Assembly: GCA_016207565.1 (NCBI GenBank)
Contig: JACQPK010000267.1
Coordinates: 1-58,428 of the forward strand
DNA from: Elusimicrobiota bacterium
GTDB lineage: Bacteria; Elusimicrobiota; Elusimicrobia; UBA1565; JACRDR01
Reading direction: 5' to 3'
DNA length: 58,428 nt
The notes below the pieces were generated by a model that was given only the letters and a program-made list of their open reading frames with translations, had not been told where the DNA came from and searched no databases. Position 1 is the first letter of the stretch; each line of letters begins with the position of its first letter. This document shows positions 3,996-51,435 of this stretch, one piece after another. Both the position numbers and the translations under genes were made by a program.

Positions 3996-5111
3996 ATGCC
4001 GTCCCATCAGCGCACGGCGGCGATACTGTTCCTAGCCGCCTTGCTCGTCGGCGGCGCAGCCGTCGTCGGCCTGCGATCTCGCTGGTCCGGAAGCTCGCCC
4101 TCCCGGCGCCTCAAGACCGCAAACCCCTCCGCCCGCCCCGGCGCCCTCGCGCCCGCCCCGCTCGACGAGGAAGAAGAACGATCGGGCCTCGAGCTGGTCT
4201 CGGGGTCCGGCATCCGCTTCGGCGGGCCGGCCCGGTACGGCTCGTCGGCTTCAGGCATCGCGACGGTCGACGCGGGGGGCGGCCCCTCAGGGATCGCGTC
4301 CCGGCTGCGCGAGGCGCTCGAGCTCGGGCCGATGGAAGGGCTCGGCGAGCCGGAATACGACCCCTCGGCGGCGACCGAGGCGCCGGCGGAGCCCTCGGCC
4401 GAGGCGGCGACGGACGAGAAGGGAAGACGCGGTCCCAATTCGCGAGATCACGGCTCCGCCTCGGCGGGCCGTTCGGGCACGTCTGCCGCCGGAGAGACGG
4501 CCGGTCCCATGGGCACCGCCGGCACGCCGGCGGAACCGTCGCCGGCCGGCATGCTCCTCTCGATGTTCAAGCCGGCGGACCGGACCCGGCTGTTGACCCA
4601 TCTCGAGGGGGGCAAGGGCTTCGTCTCCGCGTGCAAGGCCAGCGGCCTCGCCGCGCAGTGCATGTCGGCCGGGCAGGCGTGCACCCGCCAGGCCGCGTGC
4701 GGCCGCTGGCTCAACGGCCAGCTCACTGCGCACGCGCGCGCCAAAGCGGGCGACGCGGAACTCGCCGGAGGCGACCAGGTGGGCGGCGTGGGGGCCCAGG
4801 TGGGCGGATTCGCCTCCGGATACGGCGCCGGCGAAACGAACGCCGCCGGCCGGGAAAAGGGGCTCGGCTCCGGCGGCGGACGCGGTTCGGGCGCGGCGCG
4901 ATCGGCCGTGAAGACGGCGAAAAAGGACGACACGCCCGAGGAAGCCCTGACGCCCTCGCCCCGCCCCACCCCGACGCCGACCCGCATCACGATCCGGCTG
5001 CCGTTCGGCGGGACCCTGACGATCCCGACGTTCACGCCCACGCCGACCCCGCGGCCGGCCCCCATCACCACCCCCGTCGAAAAGGGGAATCCGAAGTACT
5101 TTCTGAAGTAA
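3996..5111 (+). CDS. Membrane-anchored low-complexity protein with C-x8-C-x6-C-x5-C motif and Pro/Thr-rich tail
   Basis: 371 aa. N-terminal TM segment AAILFLAALLVGGAAVVGL. Cys motif CKASGLAAQCMSAGQACTRQAAC is encoded at 4632-4700. It is the first gene of a long + strand operon. Confidence 0.6.
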   Translation: MPSHQRTAAILFLAALLVGGAAVVGLRSRWSGSSPSRRLKTANPSARPGALAPAPLDEEEERSGLELVSGSGIRFGGPARYGSSASGIATVDAGGGPSGIASRLREALELGPMEGLGEPEYDPSAATEAPAEPSAEAATDEKGRRGPNSRDHGSASAGRSGTSAAGETAGPMGTAGTPAEPSPAGMLLSMFKPADRTRLLTHLEGGKGFVSACKASGLAAQCMSAGQACTRQAACGRWLNGQLTAHARAKAGDAELAGGDQVGGVGAQVGGFASGYGAGETNAAGREKGLGSGGGRGSGAARSAVKTAKKDDTPEEALTPSPRPTPTPTRITIRLPFGGTLTIPTFTPTPTPRPAPITTPVEKGNPKYFLK

Positions 5112-5129
5112 TTTGTCATAATTCGTCGG

Positions 5130-6692
5130 ATGGCCCAGAGGCCCGAGAGCCTCGAGCTCCTGCTCGAGGTGTCGCTGCTTTTGTCCTCGAAGCTCGACGT
5201 TTCCGAGCTGCTGGAGACCATCATGCAGCTCTCCTCCCGCGTCGTCAACGCGGAGACCGCCAGCCTCCTCCTCGTCGATCCGAAGACCAACGAGCTCTAC
5301 TTCGACGTCGCGCTCGGCCTGGCCCCGGAGCTGACCAAGATCCGCCTTCCGATGGGCAAAGGCATCGCGGGCGCGTGCGCGCTCGAAGGCAAAACGCTGG
5401 TCATCAACGACGTCGCCTCGGACCCCCGCTGGAGCTCGACGATGGACAAGCAGTCGGGCTTCAAGACCCGCTCCATCCTCGCGGCCCCGATGAAGTTCGC
5501 GGGCCGCACGATCGGCGTGGTGGAGGCGATCAACCACATCGGCGGCGGCTTCTCGCCGGAGGACATCCGCATCTTCGAGGCCTTCGCCTCCCAGGCGGCC
5601 GTCGCCGTCGAGAACGCGCGCCTGTTCGCCTCCGTCCAAGAGGAGAAGACGCGCCTCGACACCGTCTTCACCCAGATGACCGACGGGGCCCTCTTGACCG
5701 ACGAGGCGGGCCGGGTCACGCTCGCCAACGGGGCGGCGGTACGCCATCTCGGCGGGCGGCTCGAGGCGGGCGCGGAGCTCGAGGTCGTGTTCGAGGGCCT
5801 CGACTTCAATCCTCCCGTGCGGGAGCTGCTGACGTCGCCCGAGGTGCACGCGTCGTTCGAGGCCGTGCGCGAGCTCCCCAAGCCCCTCGTCGTGGCGGGC
5901 ACCGCGAGCATCGTCCGCTTCGAGCGCATCGGCCGCACGCCGCCCTCGATGGGACGGCTCTTCATCTTCCGGGACGTCACCGCCCAGCGCCACGAGGACG
6001 CGCTCAAGCGGAGCTTCCTGTCGCTCATCTCCCACAAGCTCAAGACGCCGCTGGCCTCGATCACCGGCTACTCGCAGCTCCTGATGGACGACCTCTCCGC
6101 GAACACCGCGCCCCAGATGATGGAGCGCTCCGTGCGGGCGATCCTCACCCAAGGCAATAAGCTCGCGTCCTTGGTCGAGAAGCTCCTCAACTTCACCACG
6201 CTGGAGGACCTCAAGGAGCGCGACGTCGAGCGCGGCTGCGTCCCGGTCGACGGCGTGCTGGCCGACGCCACCGAAGCTCTCAAGGGCTGGATGGACGAGA
6301 AGAAGGCCGCGCTCACGGTCAACTCCGCCCCCGGGCTGTCGGTCTCGGGCGACCGGCTGCTCCTGCGCGACGTCTTCAAGAACCTGATCGAGAACGGCGT
6401 GAAGTTCTCCGAGACGGGGCGCCCCGTCGAGGTATGGGCCGAGGCGGTCGGACCGGAGGTGGCCGTCCACGTCCGCGACCAGGGCCCCGGCATCCCCCCC
6501 GAGGAGCAGGCGAAGGTCTTCGACAAGTTCTACCAGATCGAGGCGAGCTTCACCGGCCAGGTCGACGGCTGGGGCCTCGGCCTGCCGTTCGTGAAGAAGG
6601 TCGTCGAGACGCACGGCGGCCGCGTGCGGCTCGAGAGCTCGCTCGGCAAGGGCACGACCGTGACGTTGTTCTTGCCCTCGGCGGCGCCATGA
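5130..6692 (+). CDS. GAF domain-containing sensor histidine kinase
   Basis: N-terminal GAF-like region. H-box FLSLISHKLKTPLASITGYSQLL. HATPase C-terminus GWGLGLPFVKKVVETHGGRVRLESSLGKGTTVTLFLP. Confidence 0.9.
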   Translation: MAQRPESLELLLEVSLLLSSKLDVSELLETIMQLSSRVVNAETASLLLVDPKTNELYFDVALGLAPELTKIRLPMGKGIAGACALEGKTLVINDVASDPRWSSTMDKQSGFKTRSILAAPMKFAGRTIGVVEAINHIGGGFSPEDIRIFEAFASQAAVAVENARLFASVQEEKTRLDTVFTQMTDGALLTDEAGRVTLANGAAVRHLGGRLEAGAELEVVFEGLDFNPPVRELLTSPEVHASFEAVRELPKPLVVAGTASIVRFERIGRTPPSMGRLFIFRDVTAQRHEDALKRSFLSLISHKLKTPLASITGYSQLLMDDLSANTAPQMMERSVRAILTQGNKLASLVEKLLNFTTLEDLKERDVERGCVPVDGVLADATEALKGWMDEKKAALTVNSAPGLSVSGDRLLLRDVFKNLIENGVKFSETGRPVEVWAEAVGPEVAVHVRDQGPGIPPEEQAKVFDKFYQIEASFTGQVDGWGLGLPFVKKVVETHGGRVRLESSLGKGTTVTLFLPSAAP

Positions 6693-8083
6693 GCAAGCTC
6701 TCGGCGGTGAAACCCGAGGACTGGGCGCCCGTCCTGGCATTCGAGGAGTACGCGGAGGCCTATCTCGAGGAGTCGTGGGGAGCGAGCCTCCACTTCGAGG
6801 ACTCCCGTACGGAGGAGATTGCCTCCGGCGCCGACGTGGGCGCCGGGCTGCGCTACCTGCGGCGCTCCGAAGGTCCGTCCGGCTTCGAGACGCGGCACGG
6901 AAGCCTCAACGCGATCGACCCCGCCGCCGCGATGGCGCTCGCGCGCCGGCTCGCGGGCTCATCCTTGAACGGACGCTCGAAGGGCCTATCGGCCCTGACG
7001 CGCTGCGCTCAGCCGGTCACGATCCGCCCGGAGGACATCGGCCTCGAGCGCAAGATCGAGCTCCTCGTCTCCGTCGACCGCGCGCTGCGCGAGGAGTTCC
7101 CCCTCCTCCGGCAGGTCAGCCTGACCTACGCGGAGCGCCGCAAGGCGTTCATGGTGCTCAATTCCGAAGGGCACGCCCGCTACGAGGAGCGCGTCGCGAC
7201 GCTCTTCGTCGCCGACGTCACGGCCGAGCGAGACGGCATCCTCCAGACGGGGCACGAGGTGGTGGGCGGGGCCAAGGGCTTCGAGCTCCTCCTCGAGCAC
7301 GATCCGCTGCGCCTCGCGCGCGGCGCCGCGGCGCGAGCGGTCGCCAAGCTTTCCGCGCCTCCCGCCAAAGCCGGCGAGATGCCCGTGGTGCTCGCCGCCT
7401 CCGCGGGCGGGACCTTCGTCCACGAGGCGATCGGCCACTCGCTCGAGGCCGACCACGTCCAGGAGGGCACCTCCCCGGCGTACGTCGGCAAGGTCGGGCA
7501 GGTCGTCGCGCCCGAAAACCTCAGCATCGTCGACGACCCGACGCTGCCTTTCGCGCGCGGCTCCTTCGCGTTCGACGACGAGGGCACCCTCGCGCGTCCG
7601 ACCGCGGTCGTCAAAGACGGCGTCCTGCGGGAGTACCTGTACGACCGCATCACGGCGGCGAAGGACGGCAAGGCGCCCAACGGCCACGGCCGGCGGGAGT
7701 CCTACCGCCACCGGCCGATCCCGCGGATGTCGAACCTCTACATCGCGCCGGGCAAGGACGATCCCGCGCGGATCCTCTCCGAGCTGGACCGCGGGCTCCT
7801 CGTGACGCGCATGGGCGGCGGGCAGGTCAACACCGCGACCGGCGAGTTCGTGTTCGAGGTGGACGAGGGCTTCTGGGTCGAGGGCGGCGTCATCAAGCAC
7901 CAGGTCCGCGACGCCAACCTCTTGGGCATCGGCCCGGAGACGCTCAAGTCCATCGATCGCTTGGGCTGGGACATCGGCTGGGGCATCGGGACCTGCGGCA
8001 AGGACGGACAAGGGGTCCCCGTATCCGACGGACAGCCGACGCTGCGGATCCCCCGAATGCTTGTGGGCGGCAGGCATGATTAG
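6689..8083 (+). CDS. tldD: TldD family metalloprotease
   Basis: HEAIGH zinc motif and a conserved C-terminal GTCGKDGQGVPV region. The start ATG overlaps the kinase stop (ATGA at 6689-6692). Confidence 0.88.
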   Translation: MSKLSAVKPEDWAPVLAFEEYAEAYLEESWGASLHFEDSRTEEIASGADVGAGLRYLRRSEGPSGFETRHGSLNAIDPAAAMALARRLAGSSLNGRSKGLSALTRCAQPVTIRPEDIGLERKIELLVSVDRALREEFPLLRQVSLTYAERRKAFMVLNSEGHARYEERVATLFVADVTAERDGILQTGHEVVGGAKGFELLLEHDPLRLARGAAARAVAKLSAPPAKAGEMPVVLAASAGGTFVHEAIGHSLEADHVQEGTSPAYVGKVGQVVAPENLSIVDDPTLPFARGSFAFDDEGTLARPTAVVKDGVLREYLYDRITAAKDGKAPNGHGRRESYRHRPIPRMSNLYIAPGKDDPARILSELDRGLLVTRMGGGQVNTATGEFVFEVDEGFWVEGGVIKHQVRDANLLGIGPETLKSIDRLGWDIGWGIGTCGKDGQGVPVSDGQPTLRIPRMLVGGRHD

Positions 8084-24710: not shown

Positions 24711-26033
24711 TCAATCCGCGGAACAGAGCGGAACGTTGGAGCCGAGCATGCACACGGTGCCCTCACTGCAGGACCCTCCGATCGACTGGTTCGACCGGCA
24801 GGGCGGCGGCATCGGGCTGAACGGCGCGACGTAGTCGTGATGCAGCTTGCCGGCCGGCCCGCAGGTCAGGGCGTTGCAGTTGCGCTTGACCACATCGAGG
24901 TAACCGTCCACCTTTTTGCCCGTGGTCGCGTCGGCGAGGATGAAGTGGGCCTTGATCTTGTTGTCGCCCCACATGCCCGCCTCGTAAGGGATCGTCCCTA
25001 TCCATTTGCCGTCCTTGTATTCCCAATGGTGGTTCCCCCAGTCCGCGCCGCCGTTGCGGCGCTTGAACGGCATGATGTAGTTCGTTCCGATCGACGCGCA
25101 GTAGCCGGAGGGACTCGTCCACTCGCCGCGGCGGTGGTCGAGGACCTCGTAGCAGACCGTCGTCTTCTCGGCTGCCAAGCCCGTGATCTCGTAGCGGATG
25201 GTCCGCGGATCGTTCATGTCGAACTCCGCCCGAGCCGGGGTGATGGCCGGCTCCCCGGCGGCCGCGATAGCGGCGTGCGATCCGATCCCTCCCGCGTGGG
25301 TGGAACCGGACGCCGACTTGAGGTCGTTCGAGGCCGCGCCCGAGGAGCCCAGCAGCCCCGCGGCGGCCGTCGTCGGGCCGGGAGTCCCCGCGGTCGTGGC
25401 GGCGGGCGCGGGCGCGCCGTGCTGCGAAGTCCCGGCGGCCGCGCTGCTGAACTTCGGCGCCCGCGTGTTGAGTCGGCTCAAGCGGTTGATCTGGGTCGGG
25501 ACGGCGCGCAACACGCCGACGGAGGACATCCGCTCGAGCCGGCGCTTCCCGGCCGCCGCCTTGGCCGCCTGGGGGATGCGCGCGGTCCTCGCGGCGAGGG
25601 CCGGCATCGCGAAGAAGGCGGTGGTCGCGGCGCCGAAGCCGGACCGGGCCGAGGCGGCCGAGCCCTGGCGCGCCGCGGCGATCGGCGCCGGCGCGTCGCG
25701 CAGCGCGGCCTCGGAACCGGCGTTCAGGCCCTCGATCGGGATCGGCGGCGGCTCGCCGATGCGGCCGGCGGGAGGCAACGGCCCCGCGGGCGAGCGGAGC
25801 GGAGCGAAGCCCGGCCCTTTCGCCGCGCGCGGCGCGGCAGGCTCGCGCGTTAACGCGGGCAGGCGGTCTCCGTCGAACTCGTAGGACGACAACGACGACC
25901 CGGCCGGAGCGGGTTGCGGCCAACGCACTCGGTCGGCGAGGTCGGGCGGCGGAGCGCCGATCGAGAGGACGACCCCCAACGCCGCCGCCGCGACGGCGGC
26001 GGCGCCCGAACGCCCGACCCATTCTTGGTTCAT
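24711..26033 (-). CDS. Membrane-anchored surface protein: shared N-module + type I Cys-rich C-terminal domain (geneC)
   Basis: TM segment AAAVAAAALGVVLSIG and a low-complexity linker with GFGAATTAFFA...GKRRLERMSSVGVLRAVPT. The C-terminal domain is paralogous to that of the 28718-29821 gene. Confidence 0.65.
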   Translation of the reverse strand: MNQEWVGRSGAAAVAAAALGVVLSIGAPPPDLADRVRWPQPAPAGSSLSSYEFDGDRLPALTREPAAPRAAKGPGFAPLRSPAGPLPPAGRIGEPPPIPIEGLNAGSEAALRDAPAPIAAARQGSAASARSGFGAATTAFFAMPALAARTARIPQAAKAAAGKRRLERMSSVGVLRAVPTQINRLSRLNTRAPKFSSAAAGTSQHGAPAPAATTAGTPGPTTAAAGLLGSSGAASNDLKSASGSTHAGGIGSHAAIAAAGEPAITPARAEFDMNDPRTIRYEITGLAAEKTTVCYEVLDHRRGEWTSPSGYCASIGTNYIMPFKRRNGGADWGNHHWEYKDGKWIGTIPYEAGMWGDNKIKAHFILADATTGKKVDGYLDVVKRNCNALTCGPAGKLHHDYVAPFSPMPPPCRSNQSIGGSCSEGTVCMLGSNVPLCSAD

Positions 26034-26043: not shown

Positions 26044-27546
26044 TCAACGGACGCCGACGGCTTTCTGCAGGACGCCGATCCTTCGGTCCAGCTCGCGGGC
26101 GATCTCCGCGTAGAGATGGCGCGCGTTGTCGGCGAGATCGGTGCGCCCGTGCGCGATCACGGGCGTGCGGCCGGCCTCCATGCGCTCGCGCGCCTCGCGG
26201 AGGCGGCGCTTGAACTCGCCCTGGCCCTCCGGCCAGTCCGCGCGCCAAAACGCGGTGCCGCCCCCCGTGCACGTATTCGAGGTCGATTGGGGGCCTTTGT
26301 CCATCTCGGCCTGGTATCCCATATAGTCGAGCTTCTTGAGCTCGGTCCACGCGCGGGCGTCGCCCGCGTTGCACGCGCTCAAGAGTTGAAACCAGTCCTG
26401 ATAGACCGGGTTCTGGCATCCAGGCGTCACGAGCAGCACGTTCGGGTCGATGACCGTGCGGCGGCAATCGGTCCAGAGGAAGAACTCGTTGGAGCCGGCA
26501 TACGGGAGGTACTCGTAGACGCGGTCCATCGGCGTGCGCTTCCAATCGGCCAGGAACACATCCCCGGCCTCGAAGCGCGCGTTCCGCGGGAGGCGAGCCG
26601 GCTCGGCGAGCCAGTCCGTCATGCGGATTCGAGCCTCGAGGAGTTGCCGCAAGGCGATGACCGCCAACGTCTCGGTGGGGCAGTCGCCGGAGGCAGGGCA
26701 CGTCCGCTGCGGCAGGGCCGCGAGGATCCGGTAATACTCGGCGAGCAGTTGCGCGTCCGACGGGAGCGCCCCCCCGGCCGGCGTCGAGCCCCTGGGCAAG
26801 GACCCCGCGGCGCCGGCGGAAACGGCTCCGCGTCCCCGAGTGACGGTATCCGACGAGCGTGCGTCTTCGCCCGAACGGGCCGCCGAAGCGCTCGAGCGTC
26901 CGGCCGCGCTCGCATCGGAGGAGCCCGCAGCGCCCGCGCCCAAGGACTTCGCCCCGGCGCTGGACCCGGCAAGAGCGGCCGAGCGGGCCGAGACCGCCGA
27001 AAGCCCGCCCAACGCGGGGAGCAGCGTCGGCGCGGTGCGCGCGACGCCGATCGAAGCGAGGCGCTTGAGCCGCTTCTTGGCGGCGGGCCGAGCGGGCTGG
27101 ACGACGGCGGCGGCCCGGGGCGCCTCGGCGGACACGGCGAGAAACGCGGAGCTCGCGCCGCCGAATCCGGCGTGCGCGACGACGCCGCCTTGGGCGGGAA
27201 CGGCGGCCGGGACGTCGCGGAGCGACTCGTCCACGTAGGCGGCGCCGGCCTGAGGCGGCGCGCTCCGGCCGCCGGCGCGGGCGACGGACGGGAACGTGGG
27301 TGAAAACGGCGTCCCGGCGACGGAGAAGGAGCCGGGCGCGGCCGACGGCGCCGGCGCCTCTGCGATCAGCTCGGGCAGGCGGTCGAACGGCTCGGGCTCC
27401 TCCGCGGGATCGACGGCGGCTCGCGCGGGCCACAACACCGGCTCCGCGCGCTCCTCGGCGGGCCGCTCCATCGAGAGCGCGACCCACAGGGCCGAGCCTC
27501 CGAGCGCGAGTCCCCAACCGGCGAGCCAGGTCTTCGTCATGATCAT
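26044..27546 (-). CDS. Membrane-anchored surface protein: shared N-module + type II Cys-rich C-terminal domain (geneB)
   Basis: Start MIMTKTWLAGWGLALGGSALWVAL overlaps the geneA stop (ATGA). Contains GFGGASSAFLA...AKKRLKRLASIGVARTAPT, then an unrelated ~250-aa domain with 8 Cys. The rest of the 953-aa ORF is a read-through artefact. Confidence 0.65.
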   Translation of the reverse strand: MIMTKTWLAGWGLALGGSALWVALSMERPAEERAEPVLWPARAAVDPAEEPEPFDRLPELIAEAPAPSAAPGSFSVAGTPFSPTFPSVARAGGRSAPPQAGAAYVDESLRDVPAAVPAQGGVVAHAGFGGASSAFLAVSAEAPRAAAVVQPARPAAKKRLKRLASIGVARTAPTLLPALGGLSAVSARSAALAGSSAGAKSLGAGAAGSSDASAAGRSSASAARSGEDARSSDTVTRGRGAVSAGAAGSLPRGSTPAGGALPSDAQLLAEYYRILAALPQRTCPASGDCPTETLAVIALRQLLEARIRMTDWLAEPARLPRNARFEAGDVFLADWKRTPMDRVYEYLPYAGSNEFFLWTDCRRTVIDPNVLLVTPGCQNPVYQDWFQLLSACNAGDARAWTELKKLDYMGYQAEMDKGPQSTSNTCTGGGTAFWRADWPEGQGEFKRRLREARERMEAGRTPVIAHGRTDLADNARHLYAEIARELDRRIGVLQKAVGVR

Positions 27547-28553
27547 CGCCCCGTGTAGCGGCGCCGGCAGGCCTCGTCCGCATTGCAGCGCCGCATGGCT
27601 TCCATGCACGCCGGGGTGACGTTCGCGCCCCGGCAGGCCTCGAGTCCGGTGACGCCGTTCTCCGCGCCGGTCTCGAGGACGCGCAGCAACTGGCGGCGCG
27701 ACTCGTCGTCCATGCGGCTCAAGAGCGCGGAGCTCTCCAGCCCCTCGACCTCTTGCGACTCTCCCGCGTCCTTCACCCTCGCCAGCTTCCAGTCGATGCC
27801 GCGAGCCTCCTGTCCTAGATCGCTTCGGCCGCGGACCTCCTCGTCGCGCAGGCCGTCGCCGGCGTTCTCTCCCGCCGCGCGGCGCGGACCGGCGCCGTAC
27901 GCGCTCGGCGCGTCCCGCAGATCCGTCGGCCGCTCGAGCGACGGGTTCGACGCGAGAAGGCGCCACGCGTTGCCGCTGTCGGAGCGGAATAGCCTCGCCT
28001 CGGCGGCCGCGCCCCGGACGACCGTCGCCGGGCGCGTCGCCGCGGCCCGCGGATACAACGACCGGCCGGACGCCGCGGACATGCCGGCGAGGGCCGAGGA
28101 GCGCTCTTGCGAGCGGGCCGGGCCCTGCCACCGCGCGCGGCCTTTCAGGGAGCCGGAGGCGTCCCACTCCATCGCCTTTCCTTCGTCCCACGCCGCGCCG
28201 GGAGCCGAGCGCGCCGCGGTCGGCTGCGCCTCCGCCGCCGCGCGCGAGGCGCCTAGCGCCGCCAACGAGGAACCGTTGCGCGGGCCGCCGCGCCGCCGGG
28301 CCGCGCCGGCCGCCGCCAGCGGCTCGCCGGCCGCGGTCCAGGCGGCGGCCGGACGCGCCGCGAAAAGCGGGCGGGGCGCCTCGAGCCTGCGGCCGACCGA
28401 GAACCGAGCGCCGTCCGCATCGGTCGTCCATAAGGCGAAGACCGCGCCGCTGGCCCCGCCTCCCAGCGAGAGGAGCGCCGCCAGGATGAGGAGCCGCCGA
28501 TCGGAACCGTCGGGCGGCACCGTCCTGCGCACCTGGATCATCGGCTCGTTCAT
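27543..28553 (-). CDS. Membrane-anchored low-complexity protein ending in C-x8-C-x6-C-x5-C (geneA)
   Basis: Start taken at MNEPMIQVRR...RLLILAALLSLGGGASGAVFALW. Cys motif CRGANVTPACMEAMRRCNADEAC is encoded at 27567-27635. Confidence 0.6.
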   Translation of the reverse strand: MNEPMIQVRRTVPPDGSDRRLLILAALLSLGGGASGAVFALWTTDADGARFSVGRRLEAPRPLFAARPAAAWTAAGEPLAAAGAARRRGGPRNGSSLAALGASRAAAEAQPTAARSAPGAAWDEGKAMEWDASGSLKGRARWQGPARSQERSSALAGMSAASGRSLYPRAAATRPATVVRGAAAEARLFRSDSGNAWRLLASNPSLERPTDLRDAPSAYGAGPRRAAGENAGDGLRDEEVRGRSDLGQEARGIDWKLARVKDAGESQEVEGLESSALLSRMDDESRRQLLRVLETGAENGVTGLEACRGANVTPACMEAMRRCNADEACRRRYTGR

Positions 28554-28717: not shown

Positions 28718-29821
28718 ATGGCGCACGCCGCTTCGAAGCTCGACCTAAAAACCCTCGGCCTGCTCGCCGTCGTGGTGCTCCTGAGCATGCTCGCGGGGAC
28801 CGGGACGGTGCGCCTATTCCTCAAAGGGGGCGGGACCTCGAAGCCGAGCGCCGTAGACGTCACGGTCGCCCCCGAACCACCCGAGAAGAAGAGCGTCTTC
28901 GCCAAAGACGAGCCCGCCGGGGAGCCGGCGCCCCAAGCTCACGCCGAGGTGAAGGTGCCGGTGCTCCCGCTGCCGCCGACCCTGCCGCCCAAGCGCCGGA
29001 GGAAAATGCCGCCGCAGCCCGCTCCCGAGACCCCGGAGCCGCCCCAGATCGCGCCCGCGAACTTCTTCAACTACGGGATCGGGGAAGGGGTCGAGAAGTC
29101 GGGCGCGCGGTTGGACGTCCCCGCGGCCCCGGAGCGTCCGCGTCGCGAGCTTCAGCGCGTCCCGTCGATCGGCCAAGCCCGCCCGCGCAACGTCACGGGC
29201 GCCAAGCCCCCTTCCGTGCCTCGGCCGGAGGGAAGCGAGTTCAAATCCGCGAAGGCGTCCGGGGCCGCGCTCAAGGCGCATCTCAGCCGGATGTTCGGAG
29301 AGCCGGACGGGGCCCTGAGGGTGCCGCTGTCCAAGTTTACCACCGACACGCCCGGCGACGGCGAAGGGCGGACCGGCGAAAGCGGTCCGGCCCGAGGCAC
29401 GCCGGCGGGCGGGATCGACCCGCGGCTGCGGCGCATCAACAACGCCACGATCACCGACGAGGACGCGCAGAACCCCGCGATCGAGCCCCGCCACGCGACG
29501 TTCGACATGGCCGCGCCGCGGACGCTCCAGTACCGAGTGACCGACATCCCGAAAGAGCGCACCGTCGTCTGCTACGAGGTGCTCGCGCACCCCTGCTGCC
29601 CGGAGTGCGTCGGCCCCGGCAATCAATGCGAGAGCTCGGCGAACTACTCCTCGTTCAACGGGAACGCCGACTGGAGATACGAGGGCGGCGCCTGGCTCGG
29701 AACGTTGGTGTACGTCCCGGCGGCGTACGGCTGCGAGGGCATCCAGGTCCGCTTCGTCTTCGCCGACAAGCGGACCGGCAAACACGCCGGCGCCGGCATG
29801 AACGTCGTCAACGGCTACTGA
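28718..29821 (+). CDS. Membrane-anchored surface protein: diverged N-module + type I Cys-rich C-terminal domain
   Basis: TM segment LGLLAVVVLLSMLAG and the motif RPRRELQRVPSIGQARP. The C-terminal region ATFDMAAPRTLQYRVTDIPKERTVVCYEVLAH... aligns with geneC AEFDMNDPRTIRYEITGLAAEKTTVCYEVLDH... Confidence 0.65.
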   Translation: MAHAASKLDLKTLGLLAVVVLLSMLAGTGTVRLFLKGGGTSKPSAVDVTVAPEPPEKKSVFAKDEPAGEPAPQAHAEVKVPVLPLPPTLPPKRRRKMPPQPAPETPEPPQIAPANFFNYGIGEGVEKSGARLDVPAAPERPRRELQRVPSIGQARPRNVTGAKPPSVPRPEGSEFKSAKASGAALKAHLSRMFGEPDGALRVPLSKFTTDTPGDGEGRTGESGPARGTPAGGIDPRLRRINNATITDEDAQNPAIEPRHATFDMAAPRTLQYRVTDIPKERTVVCYEVLAHPCCPECVGPGNQCESSANYSSFNGNADWRYEGGAWLGTLVYVPAAYGCEGIQVRFVFADKRTGKHAGAGMNVVNGY

Positions 29822-31388: not shown

Positions 31389-31403
31389 GTGAGGAGGCCG
31401 GAC

Positions 31404-32726
31404 ATGAAGAACCGATTCTGGATCGCGCTCGCGAGCTTGGCTCTCGGTGCGTTCGCCGAGGCCCGGGAGGCGCTGGCGCCGAGGGCGCAGGTCGAGTTCG
31501 AGCTGGGCGTCGTGCGCCACGAGTTGCGCAAGAAGAGCTCCGGGCCCCGCTGGAGCGCCGGGATCACCTCGATGGCCCAACTGTCGCTCGACGCCCGCCG
31601 CGCGCGGCTCGGCGGAGGCGGCGGGGCGCCTTCGGGAACCCTCCCCAAGCTCTCGGCCCTCTCCGTCCCCGGAGCCGGCGCGAGCGCGGTCGACTGGCGG
31701 GACCGCGACGGCCGGGACTTCGTGACGCCGGTCAAGAACCAAGGCAAGTGCGCCAGCTGCTGGGCGTTCTCGACCACCGCGGCGCTGGAGTCCTACATCC
31801 TGAGGCGCTCGAGCGTCTCCTCCCAGATCGACCTCTCCGAGCAGATCGTGGTTTCCTGCAGCGGCGCCGGGAACTGCGTCGAGGGCGGCTTCCAGGACTA
31901 CGCGGCGGAGTATCTCCAGAGGATCGGAACGGCCGACGAGTCGCTCGCTCCCTACCAGGCGGCCGACGCGCCGTGCACGCTCCTCGGGGGCTCTTGGACG
32001 AACGAGACGCTGCGGGCGGGGCAGTGGTTCTCGGTCGACGGCTCCGTCGACGGCCTGCGCTCCGCGCTGGCCGACCACGGGCCGGTCGTCGTCTGGTTCC
32101 GGGTCTACGCCGACTTCTTCTTCTATCAGTCCGGCGTCTACGAGCACGTCGCGGGCGACTGGATGGGCAACCACTCGGTCGTCCTGGTCGGCTACGACGA
32201 CACCCAGCGCGCCTTCATCGCCAAGAACAGCTGGGGGACCCGGTGGGGCGACCGAGGCTATTTCCTGATCTCCTACTCGGCCGTGTCGTCGGAGGTCGAG
32301 CTCGGACGCTGGTCGCTCGCGTTCGCGCCGAAGGAGCCGTCCCCGGTCCAGGTCCGCGTCGCCCAGCCGAGGCCGAACGCGATCGTCGCGCCGGACGCCG
32401 CCGCGACGGGAAGCGTGACGTTCGAAGGCGACGAGAACTTCCGCGTGACCGCGTTGGAGTTCACGGTCGACGGACGGAGGCTTCCGCCGGTCGAGCCCGC
32501 TCAGGCGTGGTCGGTCGCGCTTTCGACGGAGAGCCTCGCCGACGGCCCCCACACGCTGACGGTCACGGCGGCCGACAACGCCGGGCACACCCGCACGGTG
32601 TCGGTTCCGTTCACGGTCGGGGAGACGCTCGTCGACGACTTCGACTTCCGCCACCCCGGTCCGGACACGGACCTGGAGGACCGCCGCCGCCGATTCCGGC
32701 GCCGGCCCTTCACGCTGCGGCCGTGA
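31404..32726 (+). CDS. Papain-like (C1A) cysteine peptidase, secreted, with C-terminal Ig-like domain
   Basis: GAGGAGG is 6 nt upstream of the start. Signal peptide MKNRFWIALASLALGAFA. Catalytic contexts QGKCASCWAFS (Cys), GNHSVVLVGYD (His) and KNSWG (Asn). An alternative GTG start lies at 31389. Confidence 0.85.
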   Translation: MKNRFWIALASLALGAFAEAREALAPRAQVEFELGVVRHELRKKSSGPRWSAGITSMAQLSLDARRARLGGGGGAPSGTLPKLSALSVPGAGASAVDWRDRDGRDFVTPVKNQGKCASCWAFSTTAALESYILRRSSVSSQIDLSEQIVVSCSGAGNCVEGGFQDYAAEYLQRIGTADESLAPYQAADAPCTLLGGSWTNETLRAGQWFSVDGSVDGLRSALADHGPVVVWFRVYADFFFYQSGVYEHVAGDWMGNHSVVLVGYDDTQRAFIAKNSWGTRWGDRGYFLISYSAVSSEVELGRWSLAFAPKEPSPVQVRVAQPRPNAIVAPDAAATGSVTFEGDENFRVTALEFTVDGRRLPPVEPAQAWSVALSTESLADGPHTLTVTAADNAGHTRTVSVPFTVGETLVDDFDFRHPGPDTDLEDRRRRFRRRPFTLRP

Positions 32727-43978: not shown

Positions 43979-43980
43979 CG

Positions 43981-47336: not shown

Positions 47337-47463
47337 AACGGAGGAACGCAGAGGCACGCAGAGGAAGTAACGAAGAGGCGCGCAAAGGACAGCACTGATT
47401 GCGGATCCGTCCTCCGCGTTCCTCTCTGTAAATTCCCTTCGCGTACCTCTGCGTCCCTCCGTT
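47337..47463. repeat. 127-nt imperfect inverted repeat (arms ~55 nt) in the addB-addA intergenic region
   Basis: The left arm AACGGAGGAACGCAGAGGCACGCAGAGGAAGTAACGAAGAGGCGCGCAAAGGAC pairs with the reverse complement of the right arm, GAACGGAGGGACGCAGAGGTACGCGAAGGGAATTTACAGAGAGGAACGCGGAGGAC. ACGCAGAGG is tandemly duplicated in the left arm. Confidence 0.7.
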
Positions 47464-47482
47464 CTTACCGTAAGAGCGATGT

Positions 47483-50400
47483 TCATAGGGGCAGCTCCCG
47501 CCGCTCGAGGAACTCGGCGAGCTCCCGGGACGCGTCGGCGCGGCGCGCGGTCGGCCCGTGCGACTTGCGGCAGACGGCCGCGAAGGCGCAGCGCCCGCAG
47601 GCCCCATGCATCGACTCGTCGCGCGCGATCATGAACTCGCCGCGCTCGATCCCGGCGACGAAGCCCTCGAGGCGGTCCCAGAAGCCCGGCCGGAGCGCGC
47701 GCCACTCCTGGGGCTCGAGCGCGACGATCGCCGGCTCGCCCGGATGTTCGGGCGTCCCCTCGAGGCAGTACAGCGCGGCGCCGGCGACGTCACCCTCCCG
47801 GCCGAGGCCCATGGCCAGCGCGAGCTCGAGGTAGATCGGCGGCTGCAGTTCGCCCATCCGCTTCAGCCGGTCGCGGAGCTTTGCCGGCCCGCGCCCGGAC
47901 TTGTAATCGACGATCCAGAGGCGGCCGTCGGGGGCCGTGTCGATGCGGTCGGCGCGCCCGCGCAGCGCGATCCCGCGCGCGCTCCCTTCGAGCGGATGCT
48001 CGAAGAACCGGGGCACGAGCCCGGTGAGCCTGACGCGCTCGACGTCGAGCGCCGCGAGCCGGCGCAGCCGGAGCTCCAGGCGCGCGCGCGTCGCCTCCCA
48101 CACCACGGGATAGACGCCGAGCTCGCGCCAACTCACGGCGCCCAGGACCTCGCGGAGGGCTCGCTCGAGGCGCGGCGTGAAATCCGCGCGGGCGTCCTGC
48201 CAGAAGCCCTCCTCGGCCAGGGAGCGGTGGAAGCGCTCGAGCACGTCGTGCGCGAGCGTGCCGCGGGCCGCGGGCGCCACCTCGCCACGCTCGGCGGGCT
48301 CCGCCGGCTCGCCGAGGCCCAGGACGCGGCCGGCGAAGTACTGGAACGGGCAGGCGAGGTACTCCTCCAGGGCGGAAGGCGCGTAGCTCGGAGCCTCGGC
48401 GGCGCCGCGCCTCGACGCGGGCCCGACCAGCCCGTCGAACGCGCCGGGCGCCCCCGGGCGGTTGAGCAGGGCGACGCGCTCGCGGCACGCGTCGAGCAGT
48501 CGGGCGTCGAAGCCGAGCCCGGCGAGGCCGGCGCTCGAGCCGGCGCCTCGCGAGACCTCGAGCGCGGCCTCCTTCGGCGAGAGCCGGGCCTTTCCGGCGA
48601 ACTGGAGCTTCTCGAACGGCCGCCGCGGCACGCGCACGGCACGCTCGAGCTCGGTGCCGGCCGCGCGGCAGAGCTCCCGGAGGTAGATCGACGGGACCTG
48701 CGCGCGGCCGTCGTCGCCCGACCGCGGATAGACGCAGGTCAGGCTCTCGACGGCGGAGCCGGCGAGCAGCGTGAAGAGGAGCCTCTCCTCGGCGTAGCCC
48801 TCGAGCTTCGGCAGGATCCAGTACCCGCCCGGGTGCTCGAGGCGCGAGCGCACCGAGTCGGACACCAGCGGGTCCTCGCGGACCTGCCGCGGGAATACGC
48901 GCTCCTGCAGGCCGATCAGGAAGAGGTGCTTGAAGGACTCGCCGCGGGCGGACATCGCGTCGAGCACGCGCACGCCGAGGTTCGGCCCGGCCGGCGGCGA
49001 CTGGGCGCGGCGAAGCTTCTCCTCGAGCGTCTCGAGGAACTCGGCGAAGTCGGCGCCGGGCGCGGCGGGCCCGAACCCCGCCAGGGCGTCCACCGCCTCG
49101 AGCACCGCGTCGAAGGCCTCGCGGGCGGGCCCGGGCTCCGGTCGCGCGAAATGCGCCTCGAGCGCGCGCCGCGCGTGGGCCGCCATCGCCGGCCAGGGAT
49201 CGGCCGGCAGGCCCGCCGGCCCGGCGAGCTCGCGGTCGAGCCCGCGCACCCAGCGCCACAGCGACGCGACGTGCGCCGCCGGGATATTGGGGCCGTGCTC
49301 CTCGGATCCGAGCGGGAGGTCGCGCTCGATCCACGGGGCCAGACGCCCCTCCCACTGGAGGAGCCCCGAGTGGAGCCCGAGCTTGCGCACGATCGCCGGC
49401 CAGTCGTGGACGCCCTCCTCCGAGGCGCGGAGGCGGCAGTACGGCGAGGAGACCAAGTCGAGCACGCTTCTCGCGGGGAACTCGCGGCGGCGCAGGGTGA
49501 GCAGCCCGAGCGCGAGCCGCGCCGCCGGATGGCGCAGCAGGGGACCTCCCGCGTCCGTCCAGTACGGCACGCCGTTCTCGGCGAACACCTCCGCCACCGC
49601 CGCGCGGTAGGGCTCGAGCGTCCGCGCGACGACGCCGATGTCGGCGAAGTCGGGAGCATCCGGGCGGGCGCGGAGCGCCAGGATCTCCTTGGCGACGAGC
49701 CACACCTCGTCGCGGGCGCCCGAGGCGCTGAAGACGCGCAACGCGTCCGGTGCGGGCGCGGCCTGGGCGCCCGGGACGAAGAGCGCGTCGGAGGCCGCGC
49801 CGAGCGCGAGCGCGGCCGGCTCGGCGGGGAGATGCCGGGCCTTCGCGCGGCCGAGCTTCACCTTCAGGAACCGCTCGGCGAACGCGAGTCCCGGACGGCC
49901 CGGGACGTAGGGGAAGAAGACCGTGCACGCGAAGGCGCCGGCCATGGCGTCGAAGAAGTCCGCCTGGGCGCCCGTGAGGTCGTAGAAGCCGTAGTAGAGG
50001 AACTCGGCGTAGCGCGCGAGCGTCTCGGCCTGGCCGTCGCTCACCGCGTCCGCCGCCTCGCGGGCCAGCCCCGACGGCGGGAGGCACCCGAGCGTCGCGA
50101 GGCGCCGCCGGTAGCCGGACTCCAGCGCGAGCAGCGCCGAGAGCCTGCGCCGCTCGTCGGGCTCGAGCGGCAGCCGGTCGAGGTGTTCGCCGAAGCCGTC
50201 CGGGTCGACCCCCGCGTCGATGAGGTCGCGGAGGCTCGAGCGGTAGGCGGCCGCGAGCCCGCGGGAAGGCCGGGCGCCGGCGTCGGCGAGGAGGCGGTCG
50301 AGCACCTTGTCGTGGAAGAGCCCGTCGCCCACGAAGCGGGCCGAGGGCCCGCCCCGCGCCTCGAGCGCCTCCAGGGCAAGGCTATGGAAGGTGTGGAATC

Positions 50401-50581
50401 GGACGTTGAGGAGGGCGAGCCCGCCCTCGTGGGCGGCGAGCCGCTCGAGGCGTTCCGCGAGCCTGCGCGACGGCGCGACGACCGCCACGGCGCGTCCGGG
50501 GCCGGGCTTCGACTCCTTGAGCGCCGCGAGGAACGCGCGCTCCAGCGACGGGAAGGCCCCGCAGACGACGCGCAGGCTCAC
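47483..50581 (-). CDS. AddB-like PD-(D/E)XK nuclease/inactive helicase subunit with Fe-S Cys cluster
   Basis: The GTG start overlaps the upstream stop (GTGA). Nuclease region RADRID...LWIVDYKSG. The Cys pattern (CPFQYF upstream, plus C-terminal CGRCAFAAVC) is typical of the AddB iron staple. Confidence 0.8.
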   Translation of the reverse strand: MSLRVVCGAFPSLERAFLAALKESKPGPGRAVAVVAPSRRLAERLERLAAHEGGLALLNVRFHTFHSLALEALEARGGPSARFVGDGLFHDKVLDRLLADAGARPSRGLAAAYRSSLRDLIDAGVDPDGFGEHLDRLPLEPDERRRLSALLALESGYRRRLATLGCLPPSGLAREAADAVSDGQAETLARYAEFLYYGFYDLTGAQADFFDAMAGAFACTVFFPYVPGRPGLAFAERFLKVKLGRAKARHLPAEPAALALGAASDALFVPGAQAAPAPDALRVFSASGARDEVWLVAKEILALRARPDAPDFADIGVVARTLEPYRAAVAEVFAENGVPYWTDAGGPLLRHPAARLALGLLTLRRREFPARSVLDLVSSPYCRLRASEEGVHDWPAIVRKLGLHSGLLQWEGRLAPWIERDLPLGSEEHGPNIPAAHVASLWRWVRGLDRELAGPAGLPADPWPAMAAHARRALEAHFARPEPGPAREAFDAVLEAVDALAGFGPAAPGADFAEFLETLEEKLRRAQSPPAGPNLGVRVLDAMSARGESFKHLFLIGLQERVFPRQVREDPLVSDSVRSRLEHPGGYWILPKLEGYAEERLLFTLLAGSAVESLTCVYPRSGDDGRAQVPSIYLRELCRAAGTELERAVRVPRRPFEKLQFAGKARLSPKEAALEVSRGAGSSAGLAGLGFDARLLDACRERVALLNRPGAPGAFDGLVGPASRRGAAEAPSYAPSALEEYLACPFQYFAGRVLGLGEPAEPAERGEVAPAARGTLAHDVLERFHRSLAEEGFWQDARADFTPRLERALREVLGAVSWRELGVYPVVWEATRARLELRLRRLAALDVERVRLTGLVPRFFEHPLEGSARGIALRGRADRIDTAPDGRLWIVDYKSGRGPAKLRDRLKRMGELQPPIYLELALAMGLGREGDVAGAALYCLEGTPEHPGEPAIVALEPQEWRALRPGFWDRLEGFVAGIERGEFMIARDESMHGACGRCAFAAVCRKSHGPTARRADASRELAEFLERRELPL

Positions 50582-51435
50582 GGCGTCGGCCTCGGGCTCG
50601 GGCTCGGCGTCGGCTGCCCTCGCGCCGTGTCGGTGGAGGCGGCGGCGCCGGCCGCCCCGCCGGCAAAGCGCTCCCCGTACGCCGAGACGCGCCGGCCGCA
50701 CTCCGCGTCCTTTCGGCATTCCGCCAGCGCGCGCTCGCATTGGCCGCCGGGGCCGAGCCGCCGGCAGATGTCGAGGAAGTCCGGGCCGGAGCCGGGCTGC
50801 ACCCAGTGGCCTTCGATCCTCGGATCTCCGCGCCCGCGCGCTCCCGCCGCCTCGACCCCGGGCCTAGACGCCGCCGCGCCTCCCGCCGCGGGGCCCTGGC
50901 CGCCGGGGGCGTTCCCTTCGCCCGGCTCGACGGCGTAGAGGCCGTAGACCTTGCCTTCGCCGGCCGCCGCTTTCGCCGCGGCCGCGGCCTCGCGGACGGA
51001 GACTCCGAGCCCCGGCCGGGAGGCGAGCCGCTCGGCCAATGCCCGAAAGCCTGCCTCCCGGGAGGCGCTCGCGAACAGCGCGGCGAAGTCCCGCTCGGCC
51101 GTCAGGTCGCGGAGGAAGTCCCGCGCGGTGGGGCCGGCCTGCCGGCGGGCCCGGCTCTGCGCGGCGCGCTCGACGAAACGGTTCCAGAGCGTCCGCAGCC
51201 GGGGCTTGGCGGCGAACTCGCGCGCGAAGGCGCGCGCCGCGGGGTCGTCTTGCTCTCGCCCGAGAAGACGCGCGAGCTCCTCAAAAGAGAGCGGCTCCTC
51301 CTTCGGCGGCGGCGGCGGAGCGGAGGCGCGGTCGTCGGGCGCGGGCGGCGAGAGCCTGGGCGCGAGCCACCACCCGACGAGCAGGCCGAGCAGCGAGAAC
51401 GCGAGGAGCGCGACGAGGAGGCCCGTGCGGCGCAT
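50578..51435 (-). CDS. Membrane-anchored low-complexity protein with C-x8-C-x6-C-x5-C motif
   Basis: Start taken at MRRTGLLVALLAFSLLGLLVGWW. Cys motif CRRLGPGGQCERALAECRKDAEC is encoded at 50698-50766. Confidence 0.6.
   Translation of the reverse strand: MRRTGLLVALLAFSLLGLLVGWWLAPRLSPPAPDDRASAPPPPPKEEPLSFEELARLLGREQDDPAARAFAREFAAKPRLRTLWNRFVERAAQSRARRQAGPTARDFLRDLTAERDFAALFASASREAGFRALAERLASRPGLGVSVREAAAAAKAAAGEGKVYGLYAVEPGEGNAPGGQGPAAGGAAASRPGVEAAGARGRGDPRIEGHWVQPGSGPDFLDICRRLGPGGQCERALAECRKDAECGRRVSAYGERFAGGAAGAAASTDTARGQPTPSPSPRPTP

What the first reader, a model, noticed from the sequence alone, without database searches (positions are those of the whole stretch)
3996..51435. C-x8-C-x6-C-x5-C motif shared by three membrane-anchored disordered proteins, each heading an operon
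Cys spacing is identical in all three:
- 3996-5111: CKASGLAAQCMSAGQACTRQAAC, nt 4632-4700
- 27543-28553: CRGANVTPACMEAMRRCNADEAC, nt 27567-27635
- 50578-51435: CRRLGPGGQCERALAECRKDAEC, nt 50698-50766

In each case a basic or aromatic G/R-R-R/W follows. Two of the three are preceded by a similar [DS]R[TR][RQ]LL..LE.G...V...AC segment. All three have a short N-terminus, one TM helix and a long low-complexity region.

Each is the first gene of a tightly coupled operon. The first heads kinase-TldD-PrcB-...-HtrA, the second heads geneB-geneC, and the third heads the addB-like gene with a GTGA overlap.

I do not recognise this as a known zinc-binding or disulfide-knot family.
Basis: seen in the sequence. 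Interest (0 to 1): 0.65.

Follow-up and report, generated by a model that had tools for sequence, protein, structure and literature searches.

The report
Four-cysteine helical domain in Elusimicrobia
Three membrane-anchored proteins in this uncultivated Elusimicrobiota contig share a real, previously unnamed ~60-residue helical domain with four invariant cysteines; it is confined to a few groundwater relatives and is most likely a disulfide-stapled module outside the cytoplasm, so it is a modest lineage-specific novelty.

Summary
C-x8-C-x6-C-x5-C occurs exactly three times in the six-frame translation, at the stated coordinates. About 0.0002-0.0004 occurrences are expected by chance. Each protein has only these four Cys.

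An exhaustive profile search of 1.84 billion proteins found 17 further representative clusters, and one more member in one of those clusters. Every named one comes from Elusimicrobia/Elusimicrobiota MAGs. All keep the four Cys at 8/6/5 spacing. No Pfam, NCBIfam or PDB family covers the module.

AlphaFold2 predicts a confident five-helix domain (pLDDT 88). Foldseek finds no significant match. A local C-x6-C-x5-C resemblance to the first 19 positions of the metazoan GDNF/GAS1 domain is sub-threshold.

Three lines favour an exported, disulfide-bonded module over a zinc site:
- flank charges suggest N-in/C-out topology in most members;
- Cys outside the module are even in number in nearly all complete members;
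- some members carry C-terminal Hint domains.

The "heads an operon" part holds locally and in the closest relatives. It is not a property of the family: more distant Elusimicrobia keep kinase-TldD without protein 1, and other members sit in unrelated contexts. Protein 3 also has a confidently folded N-terminal helical domain. Function remains unknown.

The parts
3996..5111 (+). Protein 1 (371 aa): N-terminal TM anchor, Ala/Gly/Pro/Ser-rich region, Cys module, Pro/Thr-rich tail
   Evidence: ORF and GC3 0.88. Relatives P0004, P0005, P0007 and P0009 are 32-43% identical overall.
4017..4073 (+). Protein 1 predicted TM helix (residues 8-26)
   Evidence: Kyte-Doolittle maximum of 2.55 over 19 residues.
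4542..4730 (+). Protein 1 four-Cys helical module (residues 183-245; Cys 213, 222, 229, 235)
   Evidence: Pattern scan, family alignment A3, AF2 pLDDT 88 with five helices. It is 48-72% identical to the relatives' modules, against 28-38% for the rest of the protein.
3960..3987 (+). Sigma-70-like promoter match (TTGACT-16-TATCCT) ending 8 nt before the protein 1 ATG
   Evidence: Consensus scan: 3 matches found against 0.1 expected in shuffles. This is a consensus match only.
27543..28553 (-). Protein 2 (336 aa): TM anchor, low-complexity region, C-terminal Cys module
   Evidence: ORF and GC3 0.85. The start is supported by the alignment with P0008.
27546..27737 (-). Protein 2 four-Cys module (residues 273-336; Cys 307, 316, 323, 329), which ends the protein
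   Evidence: It is 53-63% identical to the relatives' modules, against 28-39% for the rest.
50578..51435 (-). Protein 3 (285 aa): TM anchor, folded helical N-domain, disordered linker, truncated Cys module, Pro-rich tail
   Evidence: ORF and GC3 0.89. AF2 model built on alignment A4.
50965..51288 (-). Protein 3 N-terminal helical domain (residues 50-157), shared with P0011, P0012, P0015, P0016, P0019, P0020, P0023 and P0024
   Evidence: Alignment A4. AF2 pLDDT is about 90 or higher over residues 51-130 and falls to about 80 by residue 157. No Pfam or Foldseek match.
50668..50826 (-). Protein 3 Cys module (residues 204-256; Cys 224, 233, 240, 246). It lacks the first two helices of the full module.
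   Evidence: AF2 predicts three helices with pLDDT 53-70.
5130..6692 (+). GAF-PAS-HisKA-HATPase kinase, 18 nt downstream of protein 1
   Evidence: Pfam. The same adjacency is seen in L081 and L089.
26044..27546 (-). geneB (500 aa; signal/TM, low complexity, 6 Cys; no Pfam). Its start overlaps the protein 2 stop (ATGA).
   Evidence: It is absent after protein-2 relatives in L082 and L083.
47483..50581 (-). AddB-like PD-(D/E)XK nuclease. Its GTG start overlaps the protein 3 stop (GTGA).
   Evidence: Pfam and the junction sequence. The same adjacency is seen in L087, where AddB is 63% identical.

Best explanation
The three genes encode paralogous members of an undescribed protein-domain family, so far seen only in a narrow set of high-GC, mostly groundwater Elusimicrobiota. 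The domain is about 60 residues and all-helical.

Its signature is h-h-x-x-h-F/L-x-x-h-x-P-x-x-R-x-x-h-h-x-x-h-E-x-G-x-G-h-x-x-A-C-x8-C-x2-A-x3-C-x5-C-x-x-W-L. Only the four Cys are invariant.

It is carried by type-II (N-in/C-out) single-pass membrane proteins whose other parts are fast-evolving, low-complexity linkers.

I infer that the module lies outside the cytoplasm and is held together by two disulfides. These most plausibly join Cys1-Cys2 and Cys3-Cys4, each stapling a helix-turn-helix corner. On this reading the module is a small, stable binding knob on a flexible tether anchored in the inner membrane, comparable in layout to TonB, TolA or FtsN.

Shown: the family exists, the Cys are invariant, the fold is predicted helical, and there is no known-family match.

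Inferred: export, disulfides, and the tethered-knob role. The binding partner is unknown.
For: - Non-random pattern: 3 observed against about 2-4e-4 expected, and 0 in 1.28 Mb of related DNA.
- Family: the exhaustive HMM search returned 23 proteins at E<=1e-3. Seventeen are non-window members, all with 8/6/5 spacing. P0024 is a further member from a cluster listing.
- In the 20-sequence alignment the only invariant columns are the four Cys.
- The module is 48-72% identical between relatives, while the rest of the protein is 28-39% and neighbouring genes are 79-86%.
- AF2 gives pLDDT 88 and five helices. Cys40 and Cys47 lie seven residues apart in one predicted continuous helix. That is roughly 10 A, too far for both to ligate one Zn. 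Cys31/Cys40 and Cys47/Cys53 flank the two helix-helix turns.
- Topology: the K+R flank count favours N-in/C-out in 12 of 17 members.
- Cys outside the module, the TM helix and the Hint catalytic Cys come in even numbers (2, 2, 2, 6, 6, 4, 2, 2) in eight of the nine complete members that have any. P0021 has 15 outside the module, so 14 only if one more is set aside.
- P0011, P0012 and P0024 end in Hint/PT-HINT domains. From general knowledge, these are typical of secreted bacterial proteins.
- The module core has no CxxC and almost no His.
Against: - No experiment or coordinate-level model shows the disulfides. The tool returned no coordinates, so the connectivity is inferred from secondary structure alone.
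- Protein 1 itself has more K+R after the TM helix than before it (5 against 2), and its closest relatives are ties. Its topology is therefore ambiguous.
- The best (non-significant) structural neighbours are cytoplasmic HTH and sigma region-4 domains.
- No Dsb-type oxidoreductase was looked for, because the rest of the genome is not in hand.
- The genomic contexts give no consistent partner.
Confidence: 0.5

Rival explanations
1. The module is cytoplasmic (N-out/C-in topology) and its four Cys bind a metal or an Fe-S cluster. It would then be a membrane-tethered, HTH-like or WhiB-like redox or metal sensor that talks to the adjacent signalling genes.
For: - Protein 1 has 5 K/R after the TM helix against 2 before it.
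- The sequence pattern L..h.P..R..h...hE.G recalls sigma-70 region 4.
- The top Foldseek hits are SigD region 4, ModE, phage sigma factors and one WhiB.
- Single members hit HTH_28 (E=0.002) and HTH_20 (E=0.048).
- Several members neighbour histidine kinases, a response regulator, a Ser/Thr kinase or GerE.
Against: - All structural hits have E>2 and TM-score about 0.35 for the full-length sigma alignments (up to 0.50 over shorter alignments).
- No Sigma70_r4 or Whib Pfam hit in any of the 20 members.
- Most members have N-in charge bias.
- Extra Cys are even in number in nearly all complete members, and some members carry Hint fusions.
- There is no CxxC and almost no His.
- Cys40 and Cys47 are i,i+7 in one predicted helix, which argues against a mononuclear Zn site. 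A cubane cluster is not excluded.
Confidence: 0.15
2. The module is a bacterial relative of the metazoan GDNF/GAS1 (GFR-alpha) cysteine-rich helical domain.
For: - The PDB profile search lists GFRalpha3 (E=0.061), GFRAL, GAS1 and GFRalpha1 among its 26 weak hits. All align on C-x6-C-x5-C with the same A and D positions.
- Protein 2's module hits Pfam GDNF with E=0.04.
Against: - Only model positions 1-19 of 87 are matched, at 15.1 bits against a 22-bit cut-off, in 1 of 20 members.
- The family has 4 Cys. From general knowledge, a GFR-alpha domain has about 10.
- Foldseek against the PDB returns no GFR-alpha chain.
- The E-values are not significant once the number of queries is considered.
Confidence: 0.05
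3. The modules mark dedicated accessory or regulatory subunits of the operons they head (kinase-TldD-PrcB-HtrA, geneB-geneC, AddAB), so that each module protein works with the downstream gene products.
For: - The junctions are tight (18-nt gap, ATGA, GTGA) with no terminator-like sites between the genes.
- Protein-1-like followed by the GAF kinase recurs in L081 (contig ends in the kinase) and L089, where TldD and PrcB follow too.
- Protein-3-like followed by AddB recurs in L087.
- Protein-2-like is followed by a geneC/g28718-family protein in L082 and L083.
Against: - Those genomes are very close relatives (neighbour genes 63-86% identical), so synteny is weak evidence.
- About 30 more distant Elusimicrobia keep kinase-TldD with no protein-1 gene.
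- geneB is missing in L082 and L083.
- Other members have unrelated neighbours.
- The identical P0005 is followed by different genes in L089 and L090.
- A membrane-anchored, probably periplasmic protein has no obvious role with the cytoplasmic AddAB enzyme.
Confidence: 0.15
4. The shared spacing is a chance or compositional artefact of a high-GC, low-complexity sequence.
For: - The proteins are compositionally biased.
- BLASTP with composition adjustment gives only E=2e-4 to 0.03 between the paralogues, and fails even for protein 1 against its clear relative P0004.
Against: - The expected count is 2-4e-4 against 3 observed.
- There are none in 1.28 Mb of related DNA.
- Seventeen independent clusters keep the four Cys plus R, E.G and A positions.
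- AF2 gives a confident fold.
Confidence: 0.01

Closest known systems
GDNF/GAS1 domain (Pfam PF02351; GFR-alpha receptors, GAS1, GFRAL)
   Same: It has the local motif C-x2-A-x3-C-x2-D-x2-C-x3-[LY], that is C-x6-C-x5-C across a helix-turn-helix. It is extracellular and disulfide-stabilised. It gives the best, but non-significant, PDB and Pfam sequence matches.
   Different: Only 19 of the 87 model positions match, below threshold, in 1 of 20 members. The module has 4 Cys rather than about 10. There is no Foldseek match. The GDNF/GAS1 family is metazoan, whereas this one is from Elusimicrobiota.
TonB / TolA / FtsN-type envelope tethers (N-terminal TM anchor, extended linker, small C-terminal domain)
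   Same: The overall layout matches: a short cytoplasmic N-terminus, one TM helix, a long Pro/Ala/Ser/Thr-rich linker and a small folded domain.
   Different: There is no TonB_C, TolA or SPOR domain by Pfam. The folded unit is a Cys-stapled helical module. No ExbBD or TolQR genes lie adjacent in the window.
Sigma-70 region 4 / small HTH domains
   Same: The N-terminal half of the module has the pattern L..h.P..R..h...hE.G and a helix-turn-helix-like arrangement. HTH and sigma-4 proteins dominate the weak Foldseek lists.
   Different: There are no significant scores (E>2, TM about 0.35-0.5) and no Sigma70_r4 Pfam hit. The module has four invariant Cys and probably lies outside the cytoplasm.
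WhiB-like [4Fe-4S] proteins and twin-Cx9C (CHCH) helical hairpins
   Same: These are small all-helical domains defined by four Cys placed near helix ends.
   Different: The spacings differ. From general knowledge, WhiB-like proteins have C-xn-C-x2-C-x5-C and CHCH domains have two Cx9C pairs. There is no Pfam hit. One 23-column Foldseek alignment to a phage WhiB has E=8.5.

Membership tests
GDNF/GAS1 domain (PF02351) | Match to the Pfam model at or above the gathering score (22 bits) over most of its 87 positions | tested here: not met
   The best score is 15.1 bits (E=0.04), over model positions 1-19 only, in 1 of 20 members.
GDNF/GAS1 domain (PF02351) | About ten Cys forming five disulfides in a five-helix domain (established knowledge of GFR-alpha structures) | tested here: not met
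   The module has four Cys, and most members have no other Cys.
GDNF/GAS1 domain (PF02351) | Fold similarity to solved GFR-alpha/GAS1 structures | tested here: not met
   Foldseek against the PDB returned 5 hits, all with E>5, and none is a GFR-alpha chain.
Sigma-70 region 4 / HTH | Sequence match to Sigma70_r4 or HTH models across the family | tested here: not met
   No Sigma70_r4 hit. HTH_28 and HTH_20 each hit 1 of 20 members, with E=0.002 and E=0.048.
Sigma-70 region 4 / HTH | Significant structural superposition on HTH domains | tested here: inconclusive
   The top hits are HTH or sigma-4 proteins, but with E of 2.4-9 and TM-scores of 0.3-0.5. Small helical domains seldom reach significance in such searches.
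Zinc-binding anti-sigma (ZAS, zf-HC2) and C4 zinc ribbons | H-x3-C-x2-C or paired CxxC knuckles | tested here: not met
   No member has CxxC or the HxxxCxxC motif in the module. There is no zf-HC2 hit.
WhiB-like Fe-S proteins | C-xn-C-x2-C-x5-C spacing and a Whib Pfam match | tested here: not met
   The spacing is 8/6/5, or 8/3/5 in second copies. There is no Whib hit.
TonB/TolA-like envelope tether (works-like comparison only) | N-terminal TM anchor with N-in/C-out topology | tested here: inconclusive
   A single N-terminal hydrophobic helix is present in all complete members. Charge bias favours N-in in 12 of 17, but protein 1 is reversed. This is prediction only.
TonB/TolA-like envelope tether (works-like comparison only) | TonB_C or TolA C-terminal domain and ExbBD/TolQR partners | tested here: not met
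   No such Pfam domains occur in the three proteins or their neighbours.
New Elusimicrobiota four-Cys helical module (this family) | C-x8-C-x6-C-x5-C with conserved Ala at Cys2+3, preceded by R..hh..hE.G.G..AC and usually followed by ..WL | tested here: met
   All three window proteins and 17 database clusters fit. Protein 3 and P0023 lack the N-terminal R..E.G helices.
New Elusimicrobiota four-Cys helical module (this family) | Disulfide-bonded, extracytoplasmic | not testable with these tools
   Only indirect evidence is available: topology bias, mostly even numbers of extra Cys, and Hint fusions.

The most novel reading that the evidence does not exclude
The module is a new kind of envelope thiol/redox or Fe-S sensor. 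Four invariant Cys on a helical scaffold, tethered to the inner membrane, would switch state with periplasmic or membrane redox conditions and signal to the adjacent kinases or proteases. Alternatively, it is a true prokaryotic relative of the GDNF/GAS1 helical disulfide motif.
Probability: 0.1. Interest if true: 0.6.

Novelty: new variant of a known kind. Interest (0 to 1): 0.3.

Why it matters
It defines a clean, testable domain of unknown function: about 60 residues, four invariant Cys, a confident predicted fold and no database model. The domain is specific to an uncultivated Elusimicrobiota lineage, where it occurs several times per genome on fast-evolving envelope proteins. It could be deposited as a new family and would improve annotation of these MAGs. 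If the Cys prove to be redox- or metal-active, it would add a new envelope sensing module. As it stands it is a lineage-restricted structural domain without a known function. It does not bear on a major open question.

Tried and rejected
- **Word-indexed homologue search.** It was used three times: with protein 1, with the 3-sequence module alignment and with the 20-sequence module alignment. It returned only the query itself or nothing, although the family is in the collection. The index seems unsuited to short or low-complexity queries.
- **BLASTP with composition adjustment.** It misses the clear protein 1/P0004 relationship. MAFFT and HMMER were used instead.
- **Genome-collection scan anchored on TldD.** It gave 80 loci and identified the phylum, but none carries the module.
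- **Metagenome scans.** With the protein-1 subgroup it found only one contig, which encodes P0005 again.
- **Structure searches.** Foldseek against the PDB and BFVD with the module model, and against the PDB with the protein 3 model, gave nothing significant.
- **False positives in the exhaustive search.** P0003 is a turtle RhoGAP with repeats. P0014 is a 3,621-aa protein with 18 repeats (11 reported in the original search) of a three-Cys motif, each scoring only about 3 bits. P0022 is a two-Cys repeat protein. All three were rejected.
- **Literature.** Searches for the spacing and for Elusimicrobia cysteine-rich proteins found nothing.
- **Contig look-ups.** The look-up of encoding contigs failed for protein 1 itself and for P0011.
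Full report
**1. The observation**

The window is 71% GC. In their frames third-position GC is 0.85-0.89, the signature of real coding sequence in this genome.

A scan of all six reading frames finds C-x8-C-x6-C-x5-C exactly three times. The sites are nt 4632-4700 (+), 27567-27635 (-) and 50698-50766 (-). I predicted 53 genes (18,031 aa, Cys 1.0%). The expected number of exact matches is 1.9e-4 for independent residues. It is 4e-4 if each protein's own Cys are placed at random, and 0.01 for the raw six-frame translation. Each of the three proteins has exactly four Cys, all in the motif. The six-frame translation of 1.28 Mb of related DNA contains none.

**2. Gene structure and junctions**

- Protein 1 (3996-5111) follows a 212-nt gap after a divergently transcribed Fic gene. 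A sigma-70-like match (TTGACT-16-TATCCT, 3960-3987) ends 8 nt before its ATG. This is a consensus match only.
- The GAF-PAS-HisKA kinase starts 18 nt after the protein 1 stop. TldD/PmbA, a PrcB_C protein, two unknown proteins and an HtrA-type protease follow.
- The protein 2 stop overlaps the ATG of geneB (ATGA, 27546-27543).
- The protein 3 stop overlaps a GTG that opens a typical AddB N-terminus (GTGA, 50581-50578). The alternative upstream ATG of the AddB frame would give an Arg-rich, off-frame-looking extension.
- The protein 2 start at 28553 is supported by the orthologue alignment (MNEPMIQVRR against MTEPTIQIRR).
- No terminator-like sites separate these gene pairs.

**3. Whose genome**

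A genome-collection scan with the TldD protein shows the contig belongs to Elusimicrobiota. The best matches are groundwater MAGs: 83% identity to JACRDR01 (GCA_016212845.1), then 76% and 69%.

**4. Is there a family?**

The word-indexed homologue search found nothing. An exhaustive HMMER search of 1.84 billion representative proteins with the three-sequence module profile returned 23 proteins at E<=1e-3. Three are the window's own proteins.

Three are repeat-driven false positives. They are a turtle RhoGAP, a 3,621-aa protein whose 18 repeats (11 in the original search) have only three Cys and score about 3 bits each, and a two-Cys repeat protein.

The other 17 all carry C-x8-C-x6-C-x5-C. Every member with a source name comes from an Elusimicrobia/Elusimicrobiota MAG and is labelled 'hypothetical' or 'Hint domain-containing'. 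The rest come from metagenomes, some of them groundwater.

In the 20-sequence alignment the only invariant columns are the four Cys. An Arg in helix 2 and the Ala three residues after Cys2 are at least 90% conserved. E.G before Cys1 and W-L after Cys4 are common.

Protein 3 and its relative P0023 have a truncated version without it.

Within subgroups the module is 48-72% identical, against 28-39% for the rest of the protein. The flanking housekeeping genes are 79-86% identical. The module is thus a conserved island in fast-evolving proteins.

**5. Known or not**

- No Pfam or NCBIfam model matches the three proteins or their relatives in the module region.
- A profile search of all PDB sequences gives nothing significant. 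The best hits (E=0.06 and upward) include four GFR-alpha/GAS1-type chains aligned on C-x6-C-x5-C.
- Protein 2's module touches the first 19 of 87 positions of Pfam GDNF/GAS1 at 15.1 bits, below the 22-bit cut-off. It is the only one of 20 members to do so.
- I treat this as a motif-level resemblance, not membership.

**6. Structure**

AlphaFold2 on the 20-sequence alignment gives mean pLDDT 88.2 and pTM 0.67. It predicts five helices at residues 2-6, 11-22, 27-33, 37-47 and 51-62 of the 63-aa segment. Cys31 is in helix 3, Cys40 and Cys47 are both in helix 4, and Cys53 is in helix 5.

Seven residues on one continuous helix is roughly 10 A. This is my inference from helix geometry. It argues against one Zn ion held by all four Cys. 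Cys31/Cys40 and Cys47/Cys53 sit symmetrically about the two inter-helix turns, the geometry expected for two disulfide staples.

Foldseek finds no significant neighbour in the PDB or BFVD. The weak lists are dominated by HTH and sigma region-4 proteins.

For protein 3, AF2 predicts a TM helix (residues 4-28) and a helical domain at residues 50-157, confident over most of its length. It then predicts a disordered stretch and the Cys module at moderate confidence. That N-domain is shared with eight other family members. It has no Pfam or Foldseek match.

**7. Location and chemistry (inferred)**

- All complete members have one N-terminal hydrophobic helix. K+R counts in the flanks favour N-in/C-out in 12 of 17. 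Protein 1 is the exception (2 against 5) and its closest relatives are ties.
- Cys outside the module, the TM helix and the catalytic Cys of Hint domains number 2, 2, 2, 6, 6, 4, 2 and 2 in eight of the nine complete members that have any. P0021 has 15 Cys outside the module, so 14 only if a further one is set aside. Mostly even numbers are what disulfide-bonded exported proteins show.
- P0011, P0012 and P0024 end in Hint/PT-HINT domains.
- The module has no CxxC and almost no His.

Together these favour an exported, two-disulfide helical domain.

**8. Genomic context**

- The arrangement of a protein-1-like gene followed by the GAF kinase recurs in the closest MAG (L081, whose contig ends within the kinase) and in a groundwater metagenome contig (L089), where TldD and PrcB follow as well.
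- About 30 other Elusimicrobia loci keep kinase-TldD with a divergently oriented, unrelated gene upstream and no module.
- Protein-2-like genes are followed by a member of the geneC/g28718 family in L082 and L083, not by geneB.
- A protein-3-like gene followed by AddB recurs in L087.
- Other members neighbour a response regulator (L088) or a Ser/Thr kinase and a radical-SAM gene (L086), or sit at a contig end (L085).
- The identical P0005 protein is followed by different genes in two assemblies.

'First gene of a tight operon' is therefore true here and in near relatives. It is not a conserved feature of the family.

**9. Verdict**

This is a real, undescribed, lineage-restricted domain family. 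The most likely mechanism is a disulfide-stapled helical binding module on a flexible inner-membrane tether (confidence about 0.5).

The rivals are:
- a cytoplasmic metal or Fe-S, HTH-like sensor (0.15);
- operon-specific accessory subunits (0.15);
- a GDNF/GAS1 relative (0.05);
- a chance artefact (about 0.01).

It is of modest interest: a new domain of unknown function rather than a new kind of system.

Noticed in passing
window 24711-26033 (-), 26044-27546 (-), 28718-29821 (+); L082 815-1951; L083 1825-3147: geneC and g28718 share a C-terminal Cys-containing domain (about 30% identity). Like geneB, each is a TM/signal segment plus low-complexity region plus a Cys-bearing C-terminal domain (6-8 Cys), with no Pfam or NCBIfam hit. 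A member of this second unnamed family lies next to a protein-2-like gene in all three genomes examined.
   Followed up: partly
window 2665-3783 (-) and AT-rich spacer about 3860-3930: A Fic/DOC gene sits between the AAT-like gene and protein 1. In the closest MAG (L081) the AAT-like gene is followed directly by the protein-1 orthologue. The Fic gene therefore looks like a lineage-specific insertion, flanked by an unusually AT-rich stretch in a 71% GC contig.
   Followed up: partly
P0011, P0012, P0024 (family members from other Elusimicrobia MAGs): These members end in a Hint/PT-HINT (intein-like) domain, with only a few to about ten residues and no further domain after the terminal HN. This is a Hedgehog-like 'cargo then Hint' layout on a membrane-anchored protein.
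   Followed up: partly
P0013 residues 361-391; P0021 residues 330-362: A second, six-Cys variant of the module (C-x4/6-C-x5-C-x8-C-x3-C-x5-C) occurs downstream of the canonical copy in two members. The Cys2-Cys3 spacing is shortened from 6 to 3 residues, about one helical turn.
   Followed up: no
window 5082-5108 (C-terminus of protein 1) and the C-termini of P0004, P0005, P0007 and P0009: The protein-1 subgroup ends in a conserved short motif, K-[LY]-[QFY]-L-[EK] (KLQLE or KYFLK), after a Pro/Thr-rich tail. This could be a C-terminal recognition peptide, for example for a PDZ protease such as the HtrA encoded in the same gene cluster.
   Followed up: no
window 3960-3996: A sigma-70-like promoter match ends only 8 nt before the protein 1 ATG. 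If it is functional, the mRNA would be leaderless or nearly so.
   Followed up: no
L089 versus L090: The identical 348-aa protein P0005 is followed by GAF kinase-TldD-PrcB in one assembly and by a GerE-domain gene in another. This reflects either strain-level rearrangement or an assembly chimera.
   Followed up: no
window 31389-32726 (+): A papain-family (C1) cysteine protease with a bacterial Ig-like domain follows the HAMP kinase. In L082 the corresponding position holds DUF4214 proteins.
   Followed up: no
The word-indexed protein search missed every family member, although they are present in the same collection. Short or compositionally biased queries appear to fall through that index.
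   Followed up: yes
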